Part shown: positions 5,641-22,048 of the stretch, one piece after another
Numbering within the stretch: the stretch's first letter is position 1
Layout: the number at the start of each line of letters is the position of its first letter
From: a virus
Taxonomy: Duplodnaviria > Heunggongvirae > Uroviricota > Caudoviricetes
Strand: one strand, 5' to 3'
DNA: 22,048 bases
IMG/VR virus record: IMGVR_UViG_3300030444_000103
Coordinates: 1 to 22,048 of that record
Position numbers and translations under genes: made by a program
The notes under the pieces: generated by a model
Seen by the model: the letters and a program-made list of their open reading frames with translations, nothing else
Database searches by the model: none
What the model was told of the DNA's origin: nothing

Positions 5641-7127
5641 TGTTAACACCAAGCTGTAATGTCCCCTTTGAACCATTCTAAAATGTCCCCAGACAATTCT
5701 CTGGGGGATTTTTCATGACCAAAGAAACTGTTACGATGAGTCATAAGGAACTCCACCGACTTCAGATTATTCAGGAGTCAATTAATCGACATATTACTCA
5801 GGAACAAGCTGCGGCACGCATTGGCATTTCTATTCGGCAGGTTAAACGTCTGGTGCAACGGTATAGAAATGAAGGGCCTTCTGGTCTGGTTTCCCACCGA
5901 CGTGGAAAGCGTCCTAATAATTCCTTTTCTACTGAATTCAGAGCAACAGTAATTTTACTCCTCAAAGGCCGTTACGCTGATTTTGGACCTACGTTTGCGT
6001 GCGAAAAATTGCGCGAGATACACGGTTTATCTTTATCCGTTGAAACTCTCAGAAAGTGGATGATAGAAGAGGGGGGTATGGCGTGAACGCCGTCGTAAAA
6101 TTGCCCGTATATATCAACGCCGCATGCGACGACCATCTTACGGTGAACTGATCCAGATTGATGGCTCACCTCATGACTGGTTTGAAAATCGAGGCCCCAG
6201 ATGTACACTGATCGTTTTCATTGATGATGCCACCAGTGCGTTGATGGCGTTGCGTTTTGTGCCTGCTGAAACAACCCGGGCTTACATGGAAACCCTCCGG
6301 GGTTACCTTAATGATCATGGCGTACCGCTCGCTCTCTACTCTGATAGACACAGTATATTCAGGGTAAATAACCCAGAGCGGGAAGGTGAGCTGACCCAGT
6401 TCACTCGTGCGATAAAGACACTGGGCATCGAGCCAATCCATGCCAACAGCCCGCAGGCAAAAGGGCGGGTAGAGCGCGCCAATCAGACACTACAGGACAG
6501 GCTGGTCAAAGAAATGCGGCTTCAGAATATCAGTGATATTGAAACAGCAAATGCATGGTTGCCGACCTTTATTGAAGCCTATAACAACCGGTTCGCTACG
6601 TCGCCTCGTACTACTGATAATGCTCATCTTGATGTGCACCATTCTGAAGAGGAACTGGGTTATATCTTCAGCCTACAGGCGAAGCGCGTTCTGTCTAAAA
6701 ATCTCACTTTCCAGTACAAAAGCAGTGCGTTTCAGGTACGCAGTGAGGGCCGGGGATATCGACTTAGGCATTCGGTTGTTACTGTATGCGAGAACTTTGA
6801 CGGTGAAATTAACGTTCTGTATGACGGGAAAGCGCTGGGCTGGGAAAAGTATGTTGATGGCCCGGAGCCTATACCACTGGATGATGAAAAGAGTGTCCAT
6901 GAACGAGTGGATAATGCCCGTATTGATTTACGCTCAAAATACTATGTTAAACCTAAAGCTGACCATCCCTGGCTTACGCGCCGAACGCAAAGTCATCAGC
7001 AAGTTAAGCCCCCGAAGTTACCTAAAAAGAAGCCTGATCCCGATAAAAAAGATTGAAACCAAGATCGATTCGGTTGAGTGCATATCCATTCATAGGGTAG
7101 ATTCTTAAGTCGCGTTTCTGGTGTTCA
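5641..7127 (+). mobile_element. Insertion sequence with a DDE (rve) transposase, IS481/ISNCY-like; boundaries approximate
   Basis: Begins where hok homology ends; candidate imperfect terminal inverted repeats TGTTAACACCA (left) and TGAACACCA (right, reverse complement); no clear target-site duplication. Confidence 0.4.
5715..7056 (+). pseudogene. DDE transposase split into two ORFs by a frameshift in a G6 run (6071-6076)
   Basis: ORF 5715..6086 carries the N-terminal HTH; ORF 6124..7056 carries the integrase core; the alternative frame across the G run reads ...EEGVWRERRRKIARIYQRRMRRPSYGELIQ..., joining them. Confidence 0.7.
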
Positions 7128-7492: not shown

Positions 7493-7825
7493 TTAGACGT
7501 AAATATCAATGGTGCCAGCGGTATTTGTATCGTCTTTTTTCTCTTCTTTTTTATCAGGCTGAACTGTCGCGTCTTTATTCTTTTTCTCTGCCTGCTGCCT
7601 TAACAACTGCTCCAGTTGAGCCCTGAGGCTTTCAATTTGCTTCTGTACCAATGCAGCCATTTCTTTTTTCTGCTGTGTCGTCATCCCCTCTTCCGATGAG
7701 ATTTTCCCAAGCTTTTCAGTCAGCACCTGAATTTGTCTTGTGATTTTGGCTATTTCTGATGTTCCTTCCGGGGCGGAGTTGTTTGAAATAACGGTTGAGG
7801 TATTTCCCTGAATTGTGACAGACAT
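7493..7825 (-). CDS. flxA: FlxA-like protein (110 aa)
   Basis: 110-aa coiled-coil-like ORF matching the recalled size and context of Qin flxA; preceded by a sigma-28 promoter match. Confidence 0.65.
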   Translation of the reverse strand: MSVTIQGNTSTVISNNSAPEGTSEIAKITRQIQVLTEKLGKISSEEGMTTQQKKEMAALVQKQIESLRAQLEQLLRQQAEKKNKDATVQPDKKEEKKDDTNTAGTIDIYV

Positions 7826-7848
7826 AGATTTCTCCTTTTAAAAAAGCA

Positions 7849-7875
7849 CTATCGGCATGCACAAAAAAATCTTTA
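7849..7875 (-). promoter_or_regulatory. Sigma-28 (FliA) promoter for flxA
   Basis: Minus strand reads TAAAGATT-N11-GCCGATAG against consensus TAAAGTTT-N11-GCCGATAA, about 25 nt upstream of the start codon. Confidence 0.6.
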
Positions 7876-8320
7876 ATCGTATTTCTTGTGTCATTAATTG
7901 TTTGATGTTCAGATTGTTTTCCTCGCGGGCTGGCGCGCCTCAGAAAGTAAAGCTTGTTGACAGGGGTAAACGTTCGGCAATAATTTTCTGCCGCATGCGG
8001 GTGTTGCATAAAACGTGCTACGTTCCTTTATCGACAGGTCAGGTCACCGCTCACCCGCCGACGAGAAAGCAACACTGACATGCTAAAGCAAAAAATAGAT
8101 GAATAAGTTGAGTTGTGCATATGTAGCCTGACCGTCACAAAGTATATGGTGTCTGTACCAGTAAGATGATGGCCGGACTCTTTAAAAACGAGCTGACCTG
8201 CACAATACAGGATGGACTTAGCAATGGCTGCTCCTGGCACAAAGCGGACAGTGATCACCGTTCTTACGACTACTTTCTGACTTCCTTCGTGACTTGCCCT
8301 AAGCATGTTGTAGTGCGATA

Positions 8321-8346
8321 CTTGTAATGACATTTGTAATTACAAG
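8321..8346 (+). promoter_or_regulatory. relBE operator-like palindrome (relO)
   Basis: CTTGTAATGACATTTGTAATTACAAG just upstream of relB; matches the known pattern of TTGTAAT/ATTACAA repeats. Confidence 0.5.
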
Positions 8347-12675: not shown

Positions 12676-12891
12676 ATGTCAAATAAAATGACTGGTTTAG
12701 TAAAATGGTTTAACGCTGATAAAGGTTTCGGCTTTATTTCTCCTGTTGATGGTAGTAAAGATGTGTTTGTGCATTTTTCTGCGATTCAGAATGATAATTA
12801 TCGAACCTTATTTGAAGGTCAAAAGGTTACCTTCTCTATAGAGAGTGGTGCTAAAGGTCCTGCAGCAGCAAATGTCATCATTACTGATTAA
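12676..12891 (+). CDS. cspB: Cold-shock protein, CspB-like
   Basis: 71 aa, [38 protein letters not shown]...; divergent from the cspF-like gene. Confidence 0.85.
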
Positions 12892-15563: not shown

Positions 15564-15776
15564 ATGTCTAACAAAATGACTGGTTTAGTGAAATGGTTTA
15601 ACCCTGAAAAAGGTTTTGGTTTCATCACGCCGAAAGATGGCAGCAAAGATGTGTTTGTCCATTTCTCAGCAATTCAGAGCAACGATTTCAAAACATTAAC
15701 TGAGAATCAGGAAGTTGAATTTGGTATTGAGAACGGACCTAAAGGTCCTGCCGCTGTTCATGTAGTGGCGCTTTGA
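15564..15776 (+). CDS. cspI: Cold-shock protein, CspI-like
   Basis: 70 aa, [45 protein letters not shown]...; long AT-rich 5' leader. Confidence 0.8.
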
Positions 15777-17476: not shown

Positions 17477-17584
17477 GAGGTTGTCCCGTATTCAGTGTCG
17501 CTGATTTGTATTGTCTGAAGTTGTTTTTACGTTAAGTTGATGCAGATCAATTAATACGATATCTGCGTCGGTAATGACTCCAAC

Positions 17585-18088
17585 TTATTGATAGTGTTTT
17601 ATGTTCAGATAATGCCCGATGACTTTGTCATGCAGCTCCACCGATTTTGAGAACGACAGCGACTTCCGTCCCAGCCGTGCCAGGTGCTGCCTCAGATTCA
17701 GGTTATGCCGCTCAATTCGCTGCGTATATCGCTTGCTGATTACGTGCAGCTTTCCCTTCAGGCGGGATTCATACAGTGGCCAGCCATCCGTCATCCATAT
17801 CACCACGTCAAAGGGTGACAGCAGGCTCATAAGACGCCCCAGCGTCGCCATAGTGCGTTCACCGAATACGTGCGCAACAACCGTCTTCCGGAGCCTGTCA
17901 TACGCGTAAAACAGCCAGCGCTGGCGCGATTTAGCCCCGACGTATCCCCACTGTTCGTCCATTTCCGCGCAGACGATGACGTCACTGCCCGGCTGTATGC
18001 GCGAGGTTACCGACTGCGGCCTGAGTTTTTTAAATGGCGGAAAATCGTGTTGAGGCCAACGCCCATAATGCGGGCGGTTGCCCGGCAT
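17585..18088 (-). CDS. insB: IS1 InsB (the -1 frameshift partner that makes InsAB')
   Basis: 167-aa ORF overlapping insA in the -1 frame, the standard IS1 arrangement. Confidence 0.85.
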
Positions 18089-18282
18089 CCAACGCCATTC
18101 ATGGCCATATCAATGATTTTCTGGTGCGTACCGGGTTGAGAAGCGGTGTAAGTGAACTGCAGTTGCCATGTTTTACGGCAGTGAGAGCAGAGATAGCGCT
18201 GATGTCCGGCGGTGCTTTTGCCGTTACGCACCACCCCGTCAGTAGCTGAACAGGAGGGACAGCTGATAGAAACAGAAGCCAC
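18007..18282 (-). CDS. insA: IS1 InsA
   Basis: [91 protein letters not shown]. Confidence 0.9.
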
Positions 18283-18450
18283 TGGAGCACCTCAAAAACA
18301 CCATCATACACTAAATCAGTAAGTTGGCAGCATCACCTAGTTTATGTATCGATCGACACATGGTTTTGCATTAGTGAGACACGACTGATGTACACAAAGC
18401 TTTGTACTGGATTGCAAGGCTTTGTGCTCTTCGATAGTGGTTAAGGCGGA

Positions 18451-19608
18451 TTACTCCACCTTCCCATCAAGCCAGTCCGCCCACCACTGCATCATTTCTC
18501 TGCGCTTATCGAGATACTGAGCATGGTTGTAAATCCCACGCACAGATCCGCCGTTGGCGTGTGCCAGTTGCACTTCAATAGCGTCAGCAGGCCATTCGTG
18601 CTCGTTCATAATCGTGCTGAATTCATGCCTGAATCCGTGACCGCTTTCCAGACCCTCATAGCCGATTTGTTTGATCACAAGCAATACCGCGTTCTCGCAG
18701 ATTGGCTTCTTCTTATCGTTGCGCCCGGCAAAAACAAACTCTGATACTGGTTTGGTGATTGAGCTTAGCGTAGTGAGAAGCTCAACCACCTGGTCCGACA
18801 TCGGTACTACATGAATCTTGCGGCCCTTCATCACACTGGCGTCGATGGTGATAATCCTGTTTTCAAAATCGACGTTCTTCCATAGCATGGAACGAAGCTC
18901 TTTTGTTCTTAGGGCTGTGTAGCGTAAAACTTTGGTCGCAATGAGCGATACGATACTTCCTGAAAATGTTGCCAGTGCTTTGTTGAATGCAGGGATCTGG
19001 TCTGCAGGAAGAAACGGGAAGTTCTTCTTGCGGTATCCTTTCATGGCGTCTGCAAGGTCAGGTGCCGGGTTATATTTAGCCCTTCCGGTGACAATAGCGT
19101 AACGGAAAACCTCTCCGCATCTTCTGCGGGCTTTGTTGGCTCGCTCCATTGCACCGCGATCTTCGAATCTGCGGATTACTTCCAGCAGTTGCATCGGCTC
19201 AATATCCTGAATCTCAAGGCCGCCGATGATGGGTAAAATGTCGTCGTCAAACATTTTGGCAAGTTCGTTTGCATAGCCTACTGACCAGACTTGCTTCTTG
19301 TGCTCGTACCATTCCTTGTAAATCGCACTAAATGAATTGTTGTTAGACGAAGCCTTTTTCGCCTTTACCGGATCGATGCCAACCGAGATGTCTTTCCTCG
19401 CGGTCCATGCTTTATCCCTTGCTTCCTGCAAAGTCATAAGCGGATATTTTCCGACGGTCAGGATTTTCTCCTTACCGTCAATCTTGTAGCGAAGCTGCCA
19501 TACCTTTTTCCCGGATACAGGGACATAAAGGTACAGGCCATTACCATCGAGAAGGCGGTATGGTTTTTCTTTCGGCTTTGCTGCTTCAATCTGCTTAACG
19601 GTGAGCAT
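18451..19608 (-). CDS. intS: P4-family tyrosine integrase, IntS-like (385 aa)
   Basis: Track ORF 18451..19644; ATG at 19608 gives MLTVKQIEAAKPKEKPYRLLDGNGLYLYVPVSGKKVWQLRYKIDGKEK..., matching recalled IntS; lies next to tRNA-Arg. Confidence 0.9.
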   Translation of the reverse strand: MLTVKQIEAAKPKEKPYRLLDGNGLYLYVPVSGKKVWQLRYKIDGKEKILTVGKYPLMTLQEARDKAWTARKDISVGIDPVKAKKASSNNNSFSAIYKEWYEHKKQVWSVGYANELAKMFDDDILPIIGGLEIQDIEPMQLLEVIRRFEDRGAMERANKARRRCGEVFRYAIVTGRAKYNPAPDLADAMKGYRKKNFPFLPADQIPAFNKALATFSGSIVSLIATKVLRYTALRTKELRSMLWKNVDFENRIITIDASVMKGRKIHVVPMSDQVVELLTTLSSITKPVSEFVFAGRNDKKKPICENAVLLVIKQIGYEGLESGHGFRHEFSTIMNEHEWPADAIEVQLAHANGGSVRGIYNHAQYLDKRREMMQWWADWLDGKVE

Positions 19609-19769
19609 GGGTAAAAATCCGGTGGGTAAAATTATTTTATCCACTTTTTACCCGTCATGGAGTGCGGCTGTCAACGATCTGAAGCGAACCATGACGAACT
19701 GTGAATCTACGGAAGGCTTGATATTCAGGGGATTTTGCGGACTGGTACGGATGGGAGCGAACTGATAAA

Positions 19770-19844
19770 TGGTGTCCCCTGCAGGAATCGAACCTGCAAT
19801 TAGCCCTTAGGAGGGGCTCGTTATATCCATTTAACTAAGAGGAC
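19770..19844 (-). tRNA. argW: tRNA-Arg (anticodon CCU)
   Basis: Reverse complement GTCCTCTTAGTTAAATGGATATAACGAGCCCCTCCTAAGGGCTAATTGCAGGTTCGATTCCTGCAGGGGACACCA folds as a cloverleaf with anticodon CCT and an encoded CCA. Confidence 0.9.
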
Positions 19845-19919
19845 AATGCGGCATGAGTATACCCGCTAATGGAGTGCGGGGTAAGTACGCTGCCGCTCGA
19901 TTGCTTAAACCCTCGCCAT

Positions 19920-20852
19920 TTATGCCGGGTTTTTATAATTTTTCTTAATGTTTTCCGCACGTTCTGCTTTTTGGCGTGCTTCTGCTTTACGCTTATTGCT
20001 CATGTCGTTACGAATCTGTGCATGACTCATTAACGCGAAGATAAAGGTGCCGCCGCAGATGTTCCCCGCTAAAGTAGGTAGTGCGAAGGGCCAGATGAAA
20101 TCGCTCCAGTGCAGCGTACCGTTAAACACCAGATAGAGGATTTCAACAGAACCGACCACGATATGGGTGGTGTCACCCAGGGCAATAAGCCAGGTCATCA
20201 ATATAATCACCACAATCTTTGCCGCACCCGCTGCAGGAAACATCCAAACCATAGTGGCGATCAGCCAGCCGGAAATGATCGCGTTGGCAAACATCTCGCT
20301 GGGGGTGTTCTTCATCACATCCATGCCGATTTTGACAAATGCATCGCGAGTTTCTTCATTGAAGATAGGCATATATTCAAATGCCCACGCCGCAATACCT
20401 GTCCCGAGAATATTACCCAGCAGCACGACGCCCCATAACCGTATAAGTAAGCCGACGTTGCTCATTGTCGGTTTTTGCATGACGGGTAGTACCGCAGTCA
20501 CGGTATTTTCGGTAAATAATTGCTGGCGGGCCATAATGACGATAATAAAACCAAAGGTATAACCGAGATTCTCCAGCAAGAAGCTGCCCGGCACACCTTC
20601 CAGTTCGACATGAAATATCCCTTTTGCCAGTAACGAAGCGCCCATCGACAGACCCGCCGCAATGGCTGACCACAGTAGCGCCATTGCGTCGCGTTCCAGC
20701 TCTTTTTCACCATCCTGGCGGATATGCTCATGAATTGCCATCGCCCGGGAGGGGAGTCGGTCTTCATCTATTTCTATTTTTTTGCCGCGCTCTTTTTCTT
20801 CGCTCTCAACTTCAATTTCGTCGCTGTGTTGATCAATTTTGTCGTTGTCCAT
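19920..20852 (-). CDS. yfdC: Inner-membrane protein YfdC (formate/nitrite-transporter-like)
   Basis: 310-aa polytopic membrane protein in the conserved position between argW and mlaA. Confidence 0.85.
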   Translation of the reverse strand: MDNDKIDQHSDEIEVESEEKERGKKIEIDEDRLPSRAMAIHEHIRQDGEKELERDAMALLWSAIAAGLSMGASLLAKGIFHVELEGVPGSFLLENLGYTFGFIIVIMARQQLFTENTVTAVLPVMQKPTMSNVGLLIRLWGVVLLGNILGTGIAAWAFEYMPIFNEETRDAFVKIGMDVMKNTPSEMFANAIISGWLIATMVWMFPAAGAAKIVVIILMTWLIALGDTTHIVVGSVEILYLVFNGTLHWSDFIWPFALPTLAGNICGGTFIFALMSHAQIRNDMSNKRKAEARQKAERAENIKKNYKNPA

Positions 20853-21145
20853 GGTCTCTTCTCTTGAATTAGCACGTATAGCTAAAGCGTAGCGGCTTTT
20901 TTGCTCGCAACTGACGGGAGTTACTCTGAAAATGTAGAAAAGGCTGCGTTTGCCTTTTTCTGTTTCTATAGAATCAAGTAGCCTACAGGGCGGCGATTAC
21001 CAGGCTATGATCAAATCAGCAAATCAGGGCGTCTGGACATCAGTTGACGTGCTGTTACAATCGCCCACACCTAAACAGGCGGATACGGTATCGTTCCGTC
21101 ATGGATGGCAAACTGCATAAGCCATAAAAAAACAGGGAGACATTT

Positions 21146-21901
21146 ATGAAGCTTCGCCTGTCGGCGCTTGCTCTGGGAACTACGCTTCTGGTGGGGTGTG
21201 CGAGTTCCGGTACAGATCAGCAAGGGCGTTCTGACCCGTTAGAAGGGTTCAACCGCACCATGTACAACTTCAACTTCAATGTATTAGACCCGTATATTGT
21301 TCGACCGGTCGCTGTCGCCTGGCGTGATTATGTTCCGCAACCGGCGCGTAACGGTTTGAGCAACTTTACCGGCAACCTTGAAGAACCTGCGGTGATGGTT
21401 AACTACTTCTTGCAGGGCGACCCTTATCAGGGGATGGTCCACTTTACCCGCTTTTTCCTGAACACCATTTTGGGGATGGGCGGCTTTATTGATGTTGCAG
21501 GGATGGCGAACCCGAAACTGCAACGGACTGAACCTCACCGCTTCGGTAGTACGCTTGGTCATTATGGCGTGGGTTATGGGCCGTACGTTCAGTTACCATT
21601 CTACGGTAGCTTCACGCTGCGTGATGACGGTGGTGATATGGCGGATGGTCTTTACCCGGTTCTTTCCTGGTTGACCTGGCCGATGTCTGTGGGTAAATGG
21701 ACGCTTGAAGGGATCGAAACCCGCGCTCAGCTGCTGGATTCCGACGGTCTGCTGCGTCAGTCGTCCGATCCTTATATTATGGTGCGCGAAGCGTACTTCC
21801 AGCGTCATGATTTCATCGCTAATGGCGGCGAACTCAAACCGCAGGAAAATCCGAACGCGCAAGCGATTCAGGATGATTTAAAAGATATCGATTCTGAATA
21901 A
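21146..21901 (+). CDS. mlaA: MlaA (VacJ) outer-membrane lipoprotein
   Basis: 251 aa; signal peptide with lipobox LLVGC; sequence matches recalled VacJ/MlaA. Confidence 0.9.
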   Translation: MKLRLSALALGTTLLVGCASSGTDQQGRSDPLEGFNRTMYNFNFNVLDPYIVRPVAVAWRDYVPQPARNGLSNFTGNLEEPAVMVNYFLQGDPYQGMVHFTRFFLNTILGMGGFIDVAGMANPKLQRTEPHRFGSTLGHYGVGYGPYVQLPFYGSFTLRDDGGDMADGLYPVLSWLTWPMSVGKWTLEGIETRAQLLDSDGLLRQSSDPYIMVREAYFQRHDFIANGGELKPQENPNAQAIQDDLKDIDSE

Positions 21902-21910
21902 GAAATAAAT

Positions 21911-21945
21911 AAAAAAGGTGAGTCGCAAAACTCACCTTTTTTGTT
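21911..21945 (+). terminator. Intrinsic terminator after mlaA
   Basis: AAAAAAGGTGAGT-CGCAAA-ACTCACCTTTTTT hairpin flanked by A and T runs, so possibly bidirectional. Confidence 0.6.
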
Positions 21946-22048
21946 GTTATCCCTCAATTACCACAAGTAAAAGGAGATAAACCGACAATGACCCGGACGT
22001 AATGATGTAAAAATACTGATGTTCGTCATTGACTATTTCCGATATTCA

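What the first reader, a model, noticed from the sequence alone, without database searches (positions are those of the whole stretch)
7849..7875. Near-consensus sigma-28 promoter driving a prophage gene
TAAAGATT-N11-GCCGATAG upstream of the flxA-like ORF matches the FliA consensus at 14 of 16 positions, placing a prophage gene in the flagellar regulon.
Basis: partly seen in the sequence, partly recalled or inferred. Interest (0 to 1): 0.35.

Follow-up and report, generated by a model that had tools for sequence, protein, structure and literature searches.

The report
Known FliA promoter of prophage flxA

Summary
The motif TAAAGATT-N11-GCCGATAG is present on the minus strand at 7875-7849. It matches the sigma-28 consensus TAAAGTTT-N11-GCCGATAA at 14 of 16 positions. 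It is the only such site in the window (0.02 expected by chance). It ends 23 nt before the ATG of a 110-aa FlxA (PF14282) ORF, which has a GGAG ribosome-binding site.

The window is a Qin-like lambdoid prophage of E. coli. About 250 nt spanning the promoter and the flxA start differ from K-12 MG1655 at one base, 169 nt upstream of the -10 element. In K-12 this exact 28-mer is a published FliA ChIP-seq site: flxA RNA falls from 280 to 2 in a fliA deletion, by 28-fold in a second study, and the site is bound by the sigma-28 holoenzyme alone in genomic SELEX. The promoter was first described by Ide and Kutsukake in 1997. Observation confirmed, interpretation supported, already known.

- Promoter, ORF and a hairpin terminator look like a self-contained cassette.
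- Orthologues 63-66% identical, in non-prophage chromosomal settings, keep a sigma-28 promoter at the same offset. TAAA and CCGATA are invariant while the spacer has diverged.

The transcription start was not verified here, and FlxA's function remains unknown.

The parts
7868..7875 (-). -35 element TAAAGATT of the sigma-28 (FliA) promoter flxAp
   Evidence: Sequence read. It matches the consensus TAAAGTTT at 7/8. The same TAAAGATT octamer is the -35 of the class 3 flgMN promoter in PMC4183435 Table 2. TAAA is invariant in five diverged orthologous upstream regions.
7857..7867 (-). 11-nt spacer TTTTTGTGCAT
   Evidence: The length of 11 is kept in all five diverged upstream regions aligned, while only 2 of 11 bases are invariant. 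One of the surveyed loci, L078, has a 12-nt spacer.
7849..7856 (-). -10 element GCCGATAG of flxAp
   Evidence: It matches the consensus GCCGATAA at 7/8. CCGATA is invariant in the orthologue alignment. It is part of the 28-mer listed as the FliA motif for flxA in PMC4183435 Table 2.
7839..7843 (-). predicted transcription start region (inferred, not verified)
   Evidence: Inferred from the usual 6-10 nt distance between the end of the -10 element and +1. It would give a 5' leader of about 14-18 nt. No start-site data for this promoter could be retrieved.
7832..7835 (-). Shine-Dalgarno GGAG (within AAAAGGAGAAA), 6 nt before the ATG
   Evidence: Sequence read. AGG is invariant and the full AGGAG is kept in four of the five diverged upstream regions aligned; L087 reads AGGGAG.
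7493..7825 (-). flxA ORF, 110 aa, FlxA-like family, function unknown
   Evidence: ORF list. Pfam PF14282, E 1.9e-14. phrog_11044, unknown function. 108/110 identical to K-12 b1566. Listed as uncharacterised in PMC11551758.
7456..7478 (-). terminator-like hairpin GUGGCCC-UCAUC-GGGCCAC followed by UUUU, 14 nt after the flxA stop codon
   Evidence: Sequence. RNA fold -15.6 kcal/mol, z -2.9 against shuffles. Stem and T-run are conserved in the 66%-identical orthologue locus L087 but not in L074. The consensus terminator scan missed it because the T-run has only four T.

Best explanation
This is flxAp, the sigma-28 (FliA)-dependent promoter of the Qin-prophage gene flxA. RNA polymerase carrying FliA recognises TAAAGATT (-35) and GCCGATAG (-10), which are 11 nt apart. 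It starts transcription about 15 nt before the flxA start codon (position inferred) and makes a short monocistronic mRNA that ends at a hairpin terminator just after the stop codon. FliA is made only when FlhDC is active, and it is released from its anti-sigma factor FlgM only when the hook-basal body is complete. flxA is therefore expressed as a late (class 3-type) member of the flagellar regulon, although it sits in a prophage and is dispensable for motility. What is shown: the sequence anatomy in this window; near-identity of the promoter region to K-12 (one difference in about 250 nt, outside the promoter); and, from published K-12 work on that sequence, FliA binding in vivo and in vitro and near-total FliA dependence of the mRNA. 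What is inferred: the exact start site, the function of the terminator, and that the promoter is active in the unknown strain this window comes from.
For: Motif at 7875-7849 on the minus strand, 14/16 to consensus, unique in the window, 0.02 expected by chance. It ends 23 nt upstream of the ATG of a PF14282 FlxA ORF with a GGAG ribosome-binding site. The aligned ~250 nt around the promoter differs from K-12 MG1655 at one base, far upstream of the promoter. The identical 28-mer TAAAGATTTTTTTGTGCATGCCGATAGT is listed as the FliA ChIP-seq motif for flxA, with FAT score 16 and RNA 280 in motile MG1655 against 2 in the fliA deletion, marked significant (PMC4183435 Table 2). flxA changes by -28.4-fold in a fliA deletion and +8.2-fold 5 min after sigma-28 induction (PMC1935009 Table 2). 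A genomic SELEX peak for the sigma-28 holoenzyme alone lies in the ydfV/flxA spacer, intensity 23.2 (PMC5493296). flxA is induced 35-fold together with flagellar and chemotaxis genes in motility-activated flhDC-upstream mutants (PMC11237407) and tracks flagellar genes in other transcriptomes (PMC9068703). TAAA and CCGATA are invariant, against 2 of 11 spacer positions. 66 of the loci surveyed (E. coli, Shigella and viral contigs, including the K-12 reference and phage PhiR42_1) carry the identical promoter.
Against: No transcription start-site data for this promoter could be read. Ide and Kutsukake 1997 is not held, and the held Cappable-seq supplements had no entry near the predicted position. 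One K-12 start-site compendium lists only a sigma-70/sigma-S start about 259 nt upstream, inside ydfV, for flxA and no sigma-28 start (PMC3923258 supplement). The motility of that culture is not known, and the stored file is truncated. The strain of origin is unknown. The window carries an IS1-mediated junction seen in none of 5,426 complete E. coli genomes. If the host lacks a working FlhDC/FliA cascade, as Shigella does (background knowledge), the promoter would be intact but silent.
Confidence: 0.95

Rival explanations
1. flxA is mainly transcribed from an upstream sigma-70/sigma-S promoter inside ydfV, by read-through, and the sigma-28 match is secondary.
For: PMC3923258 supplement file 7 lists a start site at U00096.2 1644170 (+), classed sigma-70/sigma-S and assigned to the flxA transcription unit. 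By my coordinate conversion this is about window 8084 on the minus strand, 259 nt upstream of the ATG.
Against: flxA RNA drops from 280 to 2 in a fliA deletion and by 28-fold in another study, so any FliA-independent route gives about 1% or less of expression in motile cells. No sigma-70-like site was found on the minus strand between ydfV and flxA.
Confidence: 0.03
2. The promoter is intact but not used in this particular host, because the flagellar cascade is defective (a Shigella-like or non-motile lineage). It would then be a relic.
For: The window's IS1 junction between the Qin-like prophage and the argW/intS locus is absent from all 5,426 complete E. coli genomes searched. IS-driven rearrangement of this kind is typical of Shigella and other IS-rich lineages (background knowledge). 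A Shigella flexneri genome carries the same flxA locus (L005). Natural -10 variants (GTCGATAG, ACCGATAG), an IS5 insertion and a damaged start codon occur in some loci, which shows that selection is not absolute.
Against: The first 17.5 kb of the window is 100% identical to motile-type E. coli genomes such as WAT and NCTC11129, and the promoter is unmutated. Nothing in the window bears on flhDC or fliA status.
Confidence: 0.15
3. The match is a chance occurrence in A+T-rich intergenic DNA and has no promoter function.
For: Two of 100 shuffles of the window gave one site with <=2 mismatches.
Against: The position and orientation relative to the ATG are right. TAAA and CCGATA are conserved across diverged orthologues while the spacer has drifted. 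Published ChIP-seq, SELEX and expression data exist for the identical sequence.
Confidence: 0.01

Closest known systems
flxAp of E. coli K-12 MG1655 (b1566, Qin cryptic prophage); Ide and Kutsukake 1997, Gene 199:19-23
   Same: Identical promoter and leader; the ~250 nt aligned around them differ at one base, far upstream of the promoter. The protein is 108/110 identical. The neighbours are the same: ydfV, relBE and hokD on one side, ydfW on the other. This is the same feature in another strain.
   Different: The prophage here is more complete than K-12 Qin (replication genes, methyltransferase and a longer ISEsa1-like transposase ORF). At its far end it is joined through IS1 to the argW/intS locus. 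The FlxA protein has two substitutions, R68W and K84E, relative to K-12.
Class 3 flagellar promoters of E. coli and Salmonella (fliC, tar, motA, flgMN, flgKL), consensus TAAAGTTT-N11-GCCGATAA
   Same: The same two octamers and 11-nt spacing. flgMN has the identical -35 octamer TAAAGATT. Same dependence on FliA.
   Different: The gene it drives is not needed for flagellar assembly or motility (title of Ide and Kutsukake 1997, cited) and lies in a prophage. The last base of the -10 element is G instead of A.
Other non-flagellar FliA targets in E. coli (modA, ves, ynjH, ykfB in the CP4-6 prophage, yjdA-yjcZ)
   Same: FliA-bound and FliA-dependent genes with no clear role in motility. ykfB is also a prophage gene.
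   Different: flxA is among the strongest and cleanest of these (280 to 2). Its promoter is intergenic with a canonical layout, whereas several of the others are intragenic or weakly regulated.
Phage morons (self-contained promoter-gene-terminator inserts in lambdoid phages)
   Same: It has its own promoter and a hairpin terminator. It lies between the replication and Q-antiterminator modules and is transcribed against the neighbouring phage genes. Its promoter depends on a host sigma factor. The cassette is shared with non-phage chromosomal loci.
   Different: Termination was not tested. The direction of transfer (host to phage or phage to host) is unknown. No fitness effect on the lysogen is known.

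Membership tests
sigma-28 (FliA) dependent promoter | -35 octamer resembling TAAAGTTT, with the critical TAAA | tested here: met
   TAAAGATT, 7/8. In the aer promoter, single changes at positions 1, 3 or 5 of the octamer (T->C, A->T, G->A) abolish FliA-dependent activity (PMC2859248 table); here all three positions match the consensus.
sigma-28 (FliA) dependent promoter | -10 octamer resembling GCCGATAA | tested here: met
   GCCGATAG, 7/8; only the last base differs.
sigma-28 (FliA) dependent promoter | 11-nt spacer between the octamers | tested here: met
   Exactly 11 nt. The length is kept in the diverged orthologues aligned.
sigma-28 (FliA) dependent promoter | Upstream of, and co-oriented with, a gene, at a workable distance | tested here: met
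   The -10 element ends 23 nt before the flxA ATG on the same strand, with GGAG in between.
sigma-28 (FliA) dependent promoter | Occupied by FliA-RNA polymerase | not testable with these tools
   Taken from the literature on the identical K-12 sequence: ChIP-seq FAT score 16 (PMC4183435) and genomic SELEX with the sigma-28 holoenzyme alone (PMC5493296). Near-identity of the region was tested here.
sigma-28 (FliA) dependent promoter | Expression lost without FliA | not testable with these tools
   Literature on the identical K-12 sequence: 280 to 2, -28.4-fold.
sigma-28 (FliA) dependent promoter | Transcription start 6-10 nt downstream of the -10 element | not tested
   The 1997 paper that first described the promoter is not held. 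The other start-site sources gave nothing at this position.
FlxA-like protein family (Pfam PF14282) | Score above the Pfam gathering threshold over most of the model | tested here: met
   54.1 bits against a cut-off of 26.3; residues 7-101 match model positions 2-96 of 101.
Phage moron | Own promoter and own terminator flanking a gene that is not part of the phage core | tested here: inconclusive
   The promoter is met. A hairpin plus UUUU is present and is conserved in L087, but termination is not shown. DNA homology to the chromosomal orthologue L087 starts 10 nt upstream of the -35 element and ends about 80 nt past the hairpin. Presence or absence among sister phages was not surveyed.

The most novel reading that the evidence does not exclude
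The sigma-28 promoter, flxA and the terminator form one portable cassette that predates its residence in Qin-type phages. Orthologues only 63-66% identical sit in ordinary chromosomal neighbourhoods of other Enterobacteriaceae (next to LysR, MFS and acetyltransferase genes) with the same promoter architecture. On this reading FlxA is an old, conserved member of the flagellar regulon that a lambdoid phage captured, or that escaped from one, and not a phage gene that happened to acquire a FliA site. Conservation of FliA control over that distance would argue that FlxA has a real, still unknown, motility-linked role.
Probability: 0.5. Interest if true: 0.3.

Novelty: already known. Interest (0 to 1): 0.1.

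Why it matters
It matters little as a discovery. The promoter has been in the literature since 1997 and has been reconfirmed by ChIP-seq, RNA-seq, microarrays and genomic SELEX. It is a good positive control for the first-stage reader, which recognised a genuine alternative-sigma promoter from sequence alone. The residual interest is in FlxA itself.

Tried and rejected
- Reading Ide and Kutsukake 1997 for the mapped start site: not held.
- Thomason 2015 dRNA-seq supplements: not held.
- Cappable-seq supplements, searched by coordinate prefix: no hits.
- Text search for flxA plus 'transcription start site': nothing new.
- The Cho 2014 supplement gave only an upstream sigma-70/sigma-S start and no sigma-28 start. 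I treated this as uninformative, because the culture's motility is unknown and the stored file is truncated.
- Function of FlxA: the profile search against PDB sequences gave only weak coiled-coil-type matches (HAMP/EnvZ chimeras, SNARE; E >= 0.006), which I judged to be noise. PHROGs gives 'unknown function'.
- A structure prediction was considered and skipped. A short coiled-coil protein with a shallow alignment would give uninformative fold matches.
- Reaching more distant PF14282 members: two database searches were saturated by more than 100 near-identical E. coli clusters, so family-wide promoter conservation beyond about 63% identity could not be tested.
- The consensus terminator scan found nothing on the minus strand; the hairpin was found by reading the sequence and by folding.
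- The ORF 7857-8078 (+), which overlaps the promoter on the opposite strand, and the ORF 7716-8009 (-) have no support and were treated as spurious.

Full report
**Observation.** The + strand of window 7849-7875 reads CTATCGGCATGCACAAAAAAATCTTTA. Its reverse complement is TAAAGATT-TTTTTGTGCAT-GCCGATAG. The motif therefore lies on the minus strand, with the -35 element at 7875-7868, an 11-nt spacer, and the -10 element at 7856-7849. The published sigma-28 consensus is TAAAGTTT-n11-GCCGATAA (PMC2859248). A search of both strands of the window with that consensus finds this site and no other, at up to 2 or up to 3 mismatches. Dinucleotide-preserving shuffles give 0.02 sites at <=2 mismatches and 0.20 at <=3.

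**Anatomy.** After the -10 element the minus strand reads TGCTTTTTTAAAAGGAGAAATCT and then ATG at 7825.
- The -10 element ends 23 nt before the start codon.
- A GGAG ribosome-binding site (7835-7832) lies 6 nt before the ATG.
- The ORF 7825-7493 encodes 110 aa. It matches Pfam FlxA (PF14282) at 54.1 bits, against a gathering score of 26.3, and a PHROG of unknown function.
- Fourteen nucleotides after the stop codon there is a hairpin, GUGGCCC-UCAUC-GGGCCAC, followed by UUUU (7478-7456). It folds at -15.6 kcal/mol, z -2.9 against shuffles. The consensus terminator scan missed it because the T-run is short.
- The predicted start, about 7839-7843, is inferred from usual promoter geometry and was not verified.

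**Context.** The 1-kb stretch around the site is >=99% identical in 1,294 E. coli records from 1,283 of 5,426 complete genomes, where it is annotated flxA, ydfV and relB. The gene order in E. coli IAI1 and K-12 shows a Qin-type lambdoid prophage. On one side of flxA are dicB, dicA, dicC, the replication genes and an ISEsa1-like transposase. On the other are ydfV, relBE, hokD, rem, ydfU, the Q antiterminator, the csp genes and the lysis genes. An isolated 48.7-kb phage, PhiR42_1 from ECOR13, carries the same module, with the gene annotated 'FlxA (FliA regulated)'. 'Prophage gene' is therefore correct.

**Identity with the studied promoter.** The aligned ~250 nt, from 207 nt upstream of the ATG to 44 nt into flxA, differs from K-12 MG1655 at one base, 169 nt upstream of the -10 element; the promoter and leader are identical. 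The protein is 108/110 identical. Experiments in K-12 therefore apply to this sequence.
- Fitzgerald et al. 2014 (PMC4183435, Table 2) list the 28-mer TAAAGATTTTTTTGTGCATGCCGATAGT as the FliA ChIP-seq motif for flxA. The peak score is 16. Normalised RNA is 280 in motile MG1655 and 2 in the fliA deletion, marked significant. They call flxA one of the 'well-characterized FliA-dependent promoters' and cite Ide and Kutsukake 1997.
- Zhao et al. 2007 (PMC1935009) report -28.4-fold in a fliA deletion and +8.2-fold 5 min after sigma-28 induction.
- Shimada et al. 2017 (PMC5493296) find a genomic SELEX peak for the sigma-28 holoenzyme alone in the ydfV/flxA spacer.
- flxA also rises 35-fold with the flagellar and chemotaxis genes in motility-activating flhDC-upstream mutants (PMC11237407). 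It moves with flagellar genes in other transcriptomes (PMC9068703).

**Mechanism.** FliA-RNA polymerase binds the two octamers and transcribes a short monocistronic flxA mRNA. FliA itself needs FlhDC for its synthesis and needs export of FlgM to be freed (established knowledge of the flagellar cascade). flxA therefore behaves as a late, class 3-type gene.
- The -35 octamer TAAAGATT is identical to that of the class 3 flgMN promoter.
- Changes at positions 1, 3 and 5 of the -35 octamer, and in the -10 core, abolish activity in the aer sigma-28 promoter. Those positions all match the consensus here.

I collected flxA loci from species-representative genomes and from viral contigs, and the encoding contigs of two diverged homologues.
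- Of the loci surveyed, 66 have the identical promoter, including K-12 and phage PhiR42_1. Seven have single spacer changes, two have GTCGATAG, one has ACCGATAG, and one has a 12-nt spacer.
- One locus has an IS5 end abutting the ATG, and one has a damaged start region.
- More informative are four diverged lineages. All four promoter matches end 23-24 nt before the ATG:
  - L074, 88% protein identity: TAAAGATA-N11-GCCGATAG.
  - L087, 66%: TAAAGTCT-N11-GCCGATAC.
  - L006, 63%: TAAATTTC-N11-GCCGATAT.
  - L083, 65%: TAAATTTA-N11-ACCGATAT.
- In the five-way alignment TAAA and CCGATA are invariant, only 2 of 11 spacer bases are, and the spacer length is constant.
- L083 and L006 lie among MFS transporter and LysR regulator genes (plus acetyltransferase and ArsC genes in L083) with no phage genes nearby, and the short L087 contig shows no phage gene either.
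- BLASTN homology between the window and L087 begins 10 nt upstream of the -35 element and ends about 80 nt past the hairpin. The hairpin is conserved in L087.

Promoter, gene and terminator therefore look like one cassette found both in phages and in chromosomes. This rests on only four diverged lineages, and the direction of transfer is unknown.

**Caveats.** I could not read any start-site mapping for this promoter. One compendium (PMC3923258 supplement) lists only a sigma-70/sigma-S start inside ydfV, about 259 nt upstream, for flxA. Given the 280-to-2 drop without FliA, that route is minor at most. The source strain is unknown. The window's far end joins the prophage through IS1 to intS, argW, yfdC and mlaA, a junction not found in any complete E. 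coli genome searched. If the host is non-motile the promoter would be silent. FlxA's function remains unknown (PMC11551758; no informative PDB relatives).

**Verdict.** The feature is already known and interest is low. The cassette conservation is a small extension worth a systematic check.

Noticed in passing
window 7957-7984 (+), start near 7995 (+): A near-consensus sigma-70 promoter, TTGACA-16-AATAAT (11/12), points towards relB and runs antisense to ydfV. A published K-12 start site assigned to relBE-hokD (U00096.2 1644259, minus strand) converts to about window 7995, just downstream of it. It would be a distal relBE promoter, about 360 nt upstream of relB, or an antisense transcript of ydfV.
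   Followed up: partly
window ~8084 (-), inside ydfV (8028-8333 -): A published sigma-70/sigma-S start site (U00096.2 1644170, + strand) assigned to flxA lies inside the ydfV ORF. ydfV has no Pfam or PHROG match, so whether it is a real gene is open.
   Followed up: no
window 5715-7056 (+): An ISEsa1-like (IS1202/ISNCY-type) transposase is present as two ORFs: 123 aa with HTH domains and 310 aa with an rve_3 core. The 310-aa ORF is continuous here. Its last 49 codons correspond to the separately annotated small protein 'YdfW' of K-12 and IAI1, so ydfW looks like the tail of a decayed transposase gene.
   Followed up: partly
window 17570-22048: A 768-bp IS1 (about 17570-18337; InsB ORF 17585-18088 -) joins the end of the Qin-like prophage (ydfO, ynfO) to intS (18451-19644 -), tRNA-Arg(CCU) argW (19770-19844 -), yfdC (19920-20852 -) and mlaA (21146-21901 +). 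Each junction exists separately in E. coli genomes, but none of 5,426 complete genomes has both together. This suggests an IS1-IS1 recombination, most likely a large inversion, in the source strain.
   Followed up: partly
L022 (IMGVR_UViG_2619619129_000006), bases ~668-737, just upstream of the flxA ATG at 738: Sequence I recognise from memory as an IS5 end (...TTGTTCGCACCTTCC) abuts the flxA start codon, cutting the gene off from its sigma-28 promoter and ribosome-binding site.
   Followed up: no
L023, L080, L072, L078, L007 (promoter regions): Natural promoter variants: GTCGATAG (L023, L080), ACCGATAG (L072) and a 12-nt spacer (L078). L007 has an intact promoter but a damaged flxA start region. 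They could serve as natural tests of promoter strength or as signs of decay.
   Followed up: no
window 12676-12875 and 15564-15763 (+): A 200-nt direct repeat at 73% identity. By position these are the paralogous cold-shock genes cspB and cspI of the prophage.
   Followed up: no
L083 3482-6321 and L006 3364-5599: Chromosomal flxA orthologues are followed by a convergent LysR-family regulator in both L006 and L083, with ArsC and an IS110 in between in L083. This suggests a conserved non-phage home locus for flxA in some Enterobacteriaceae.
   Followed up: partly
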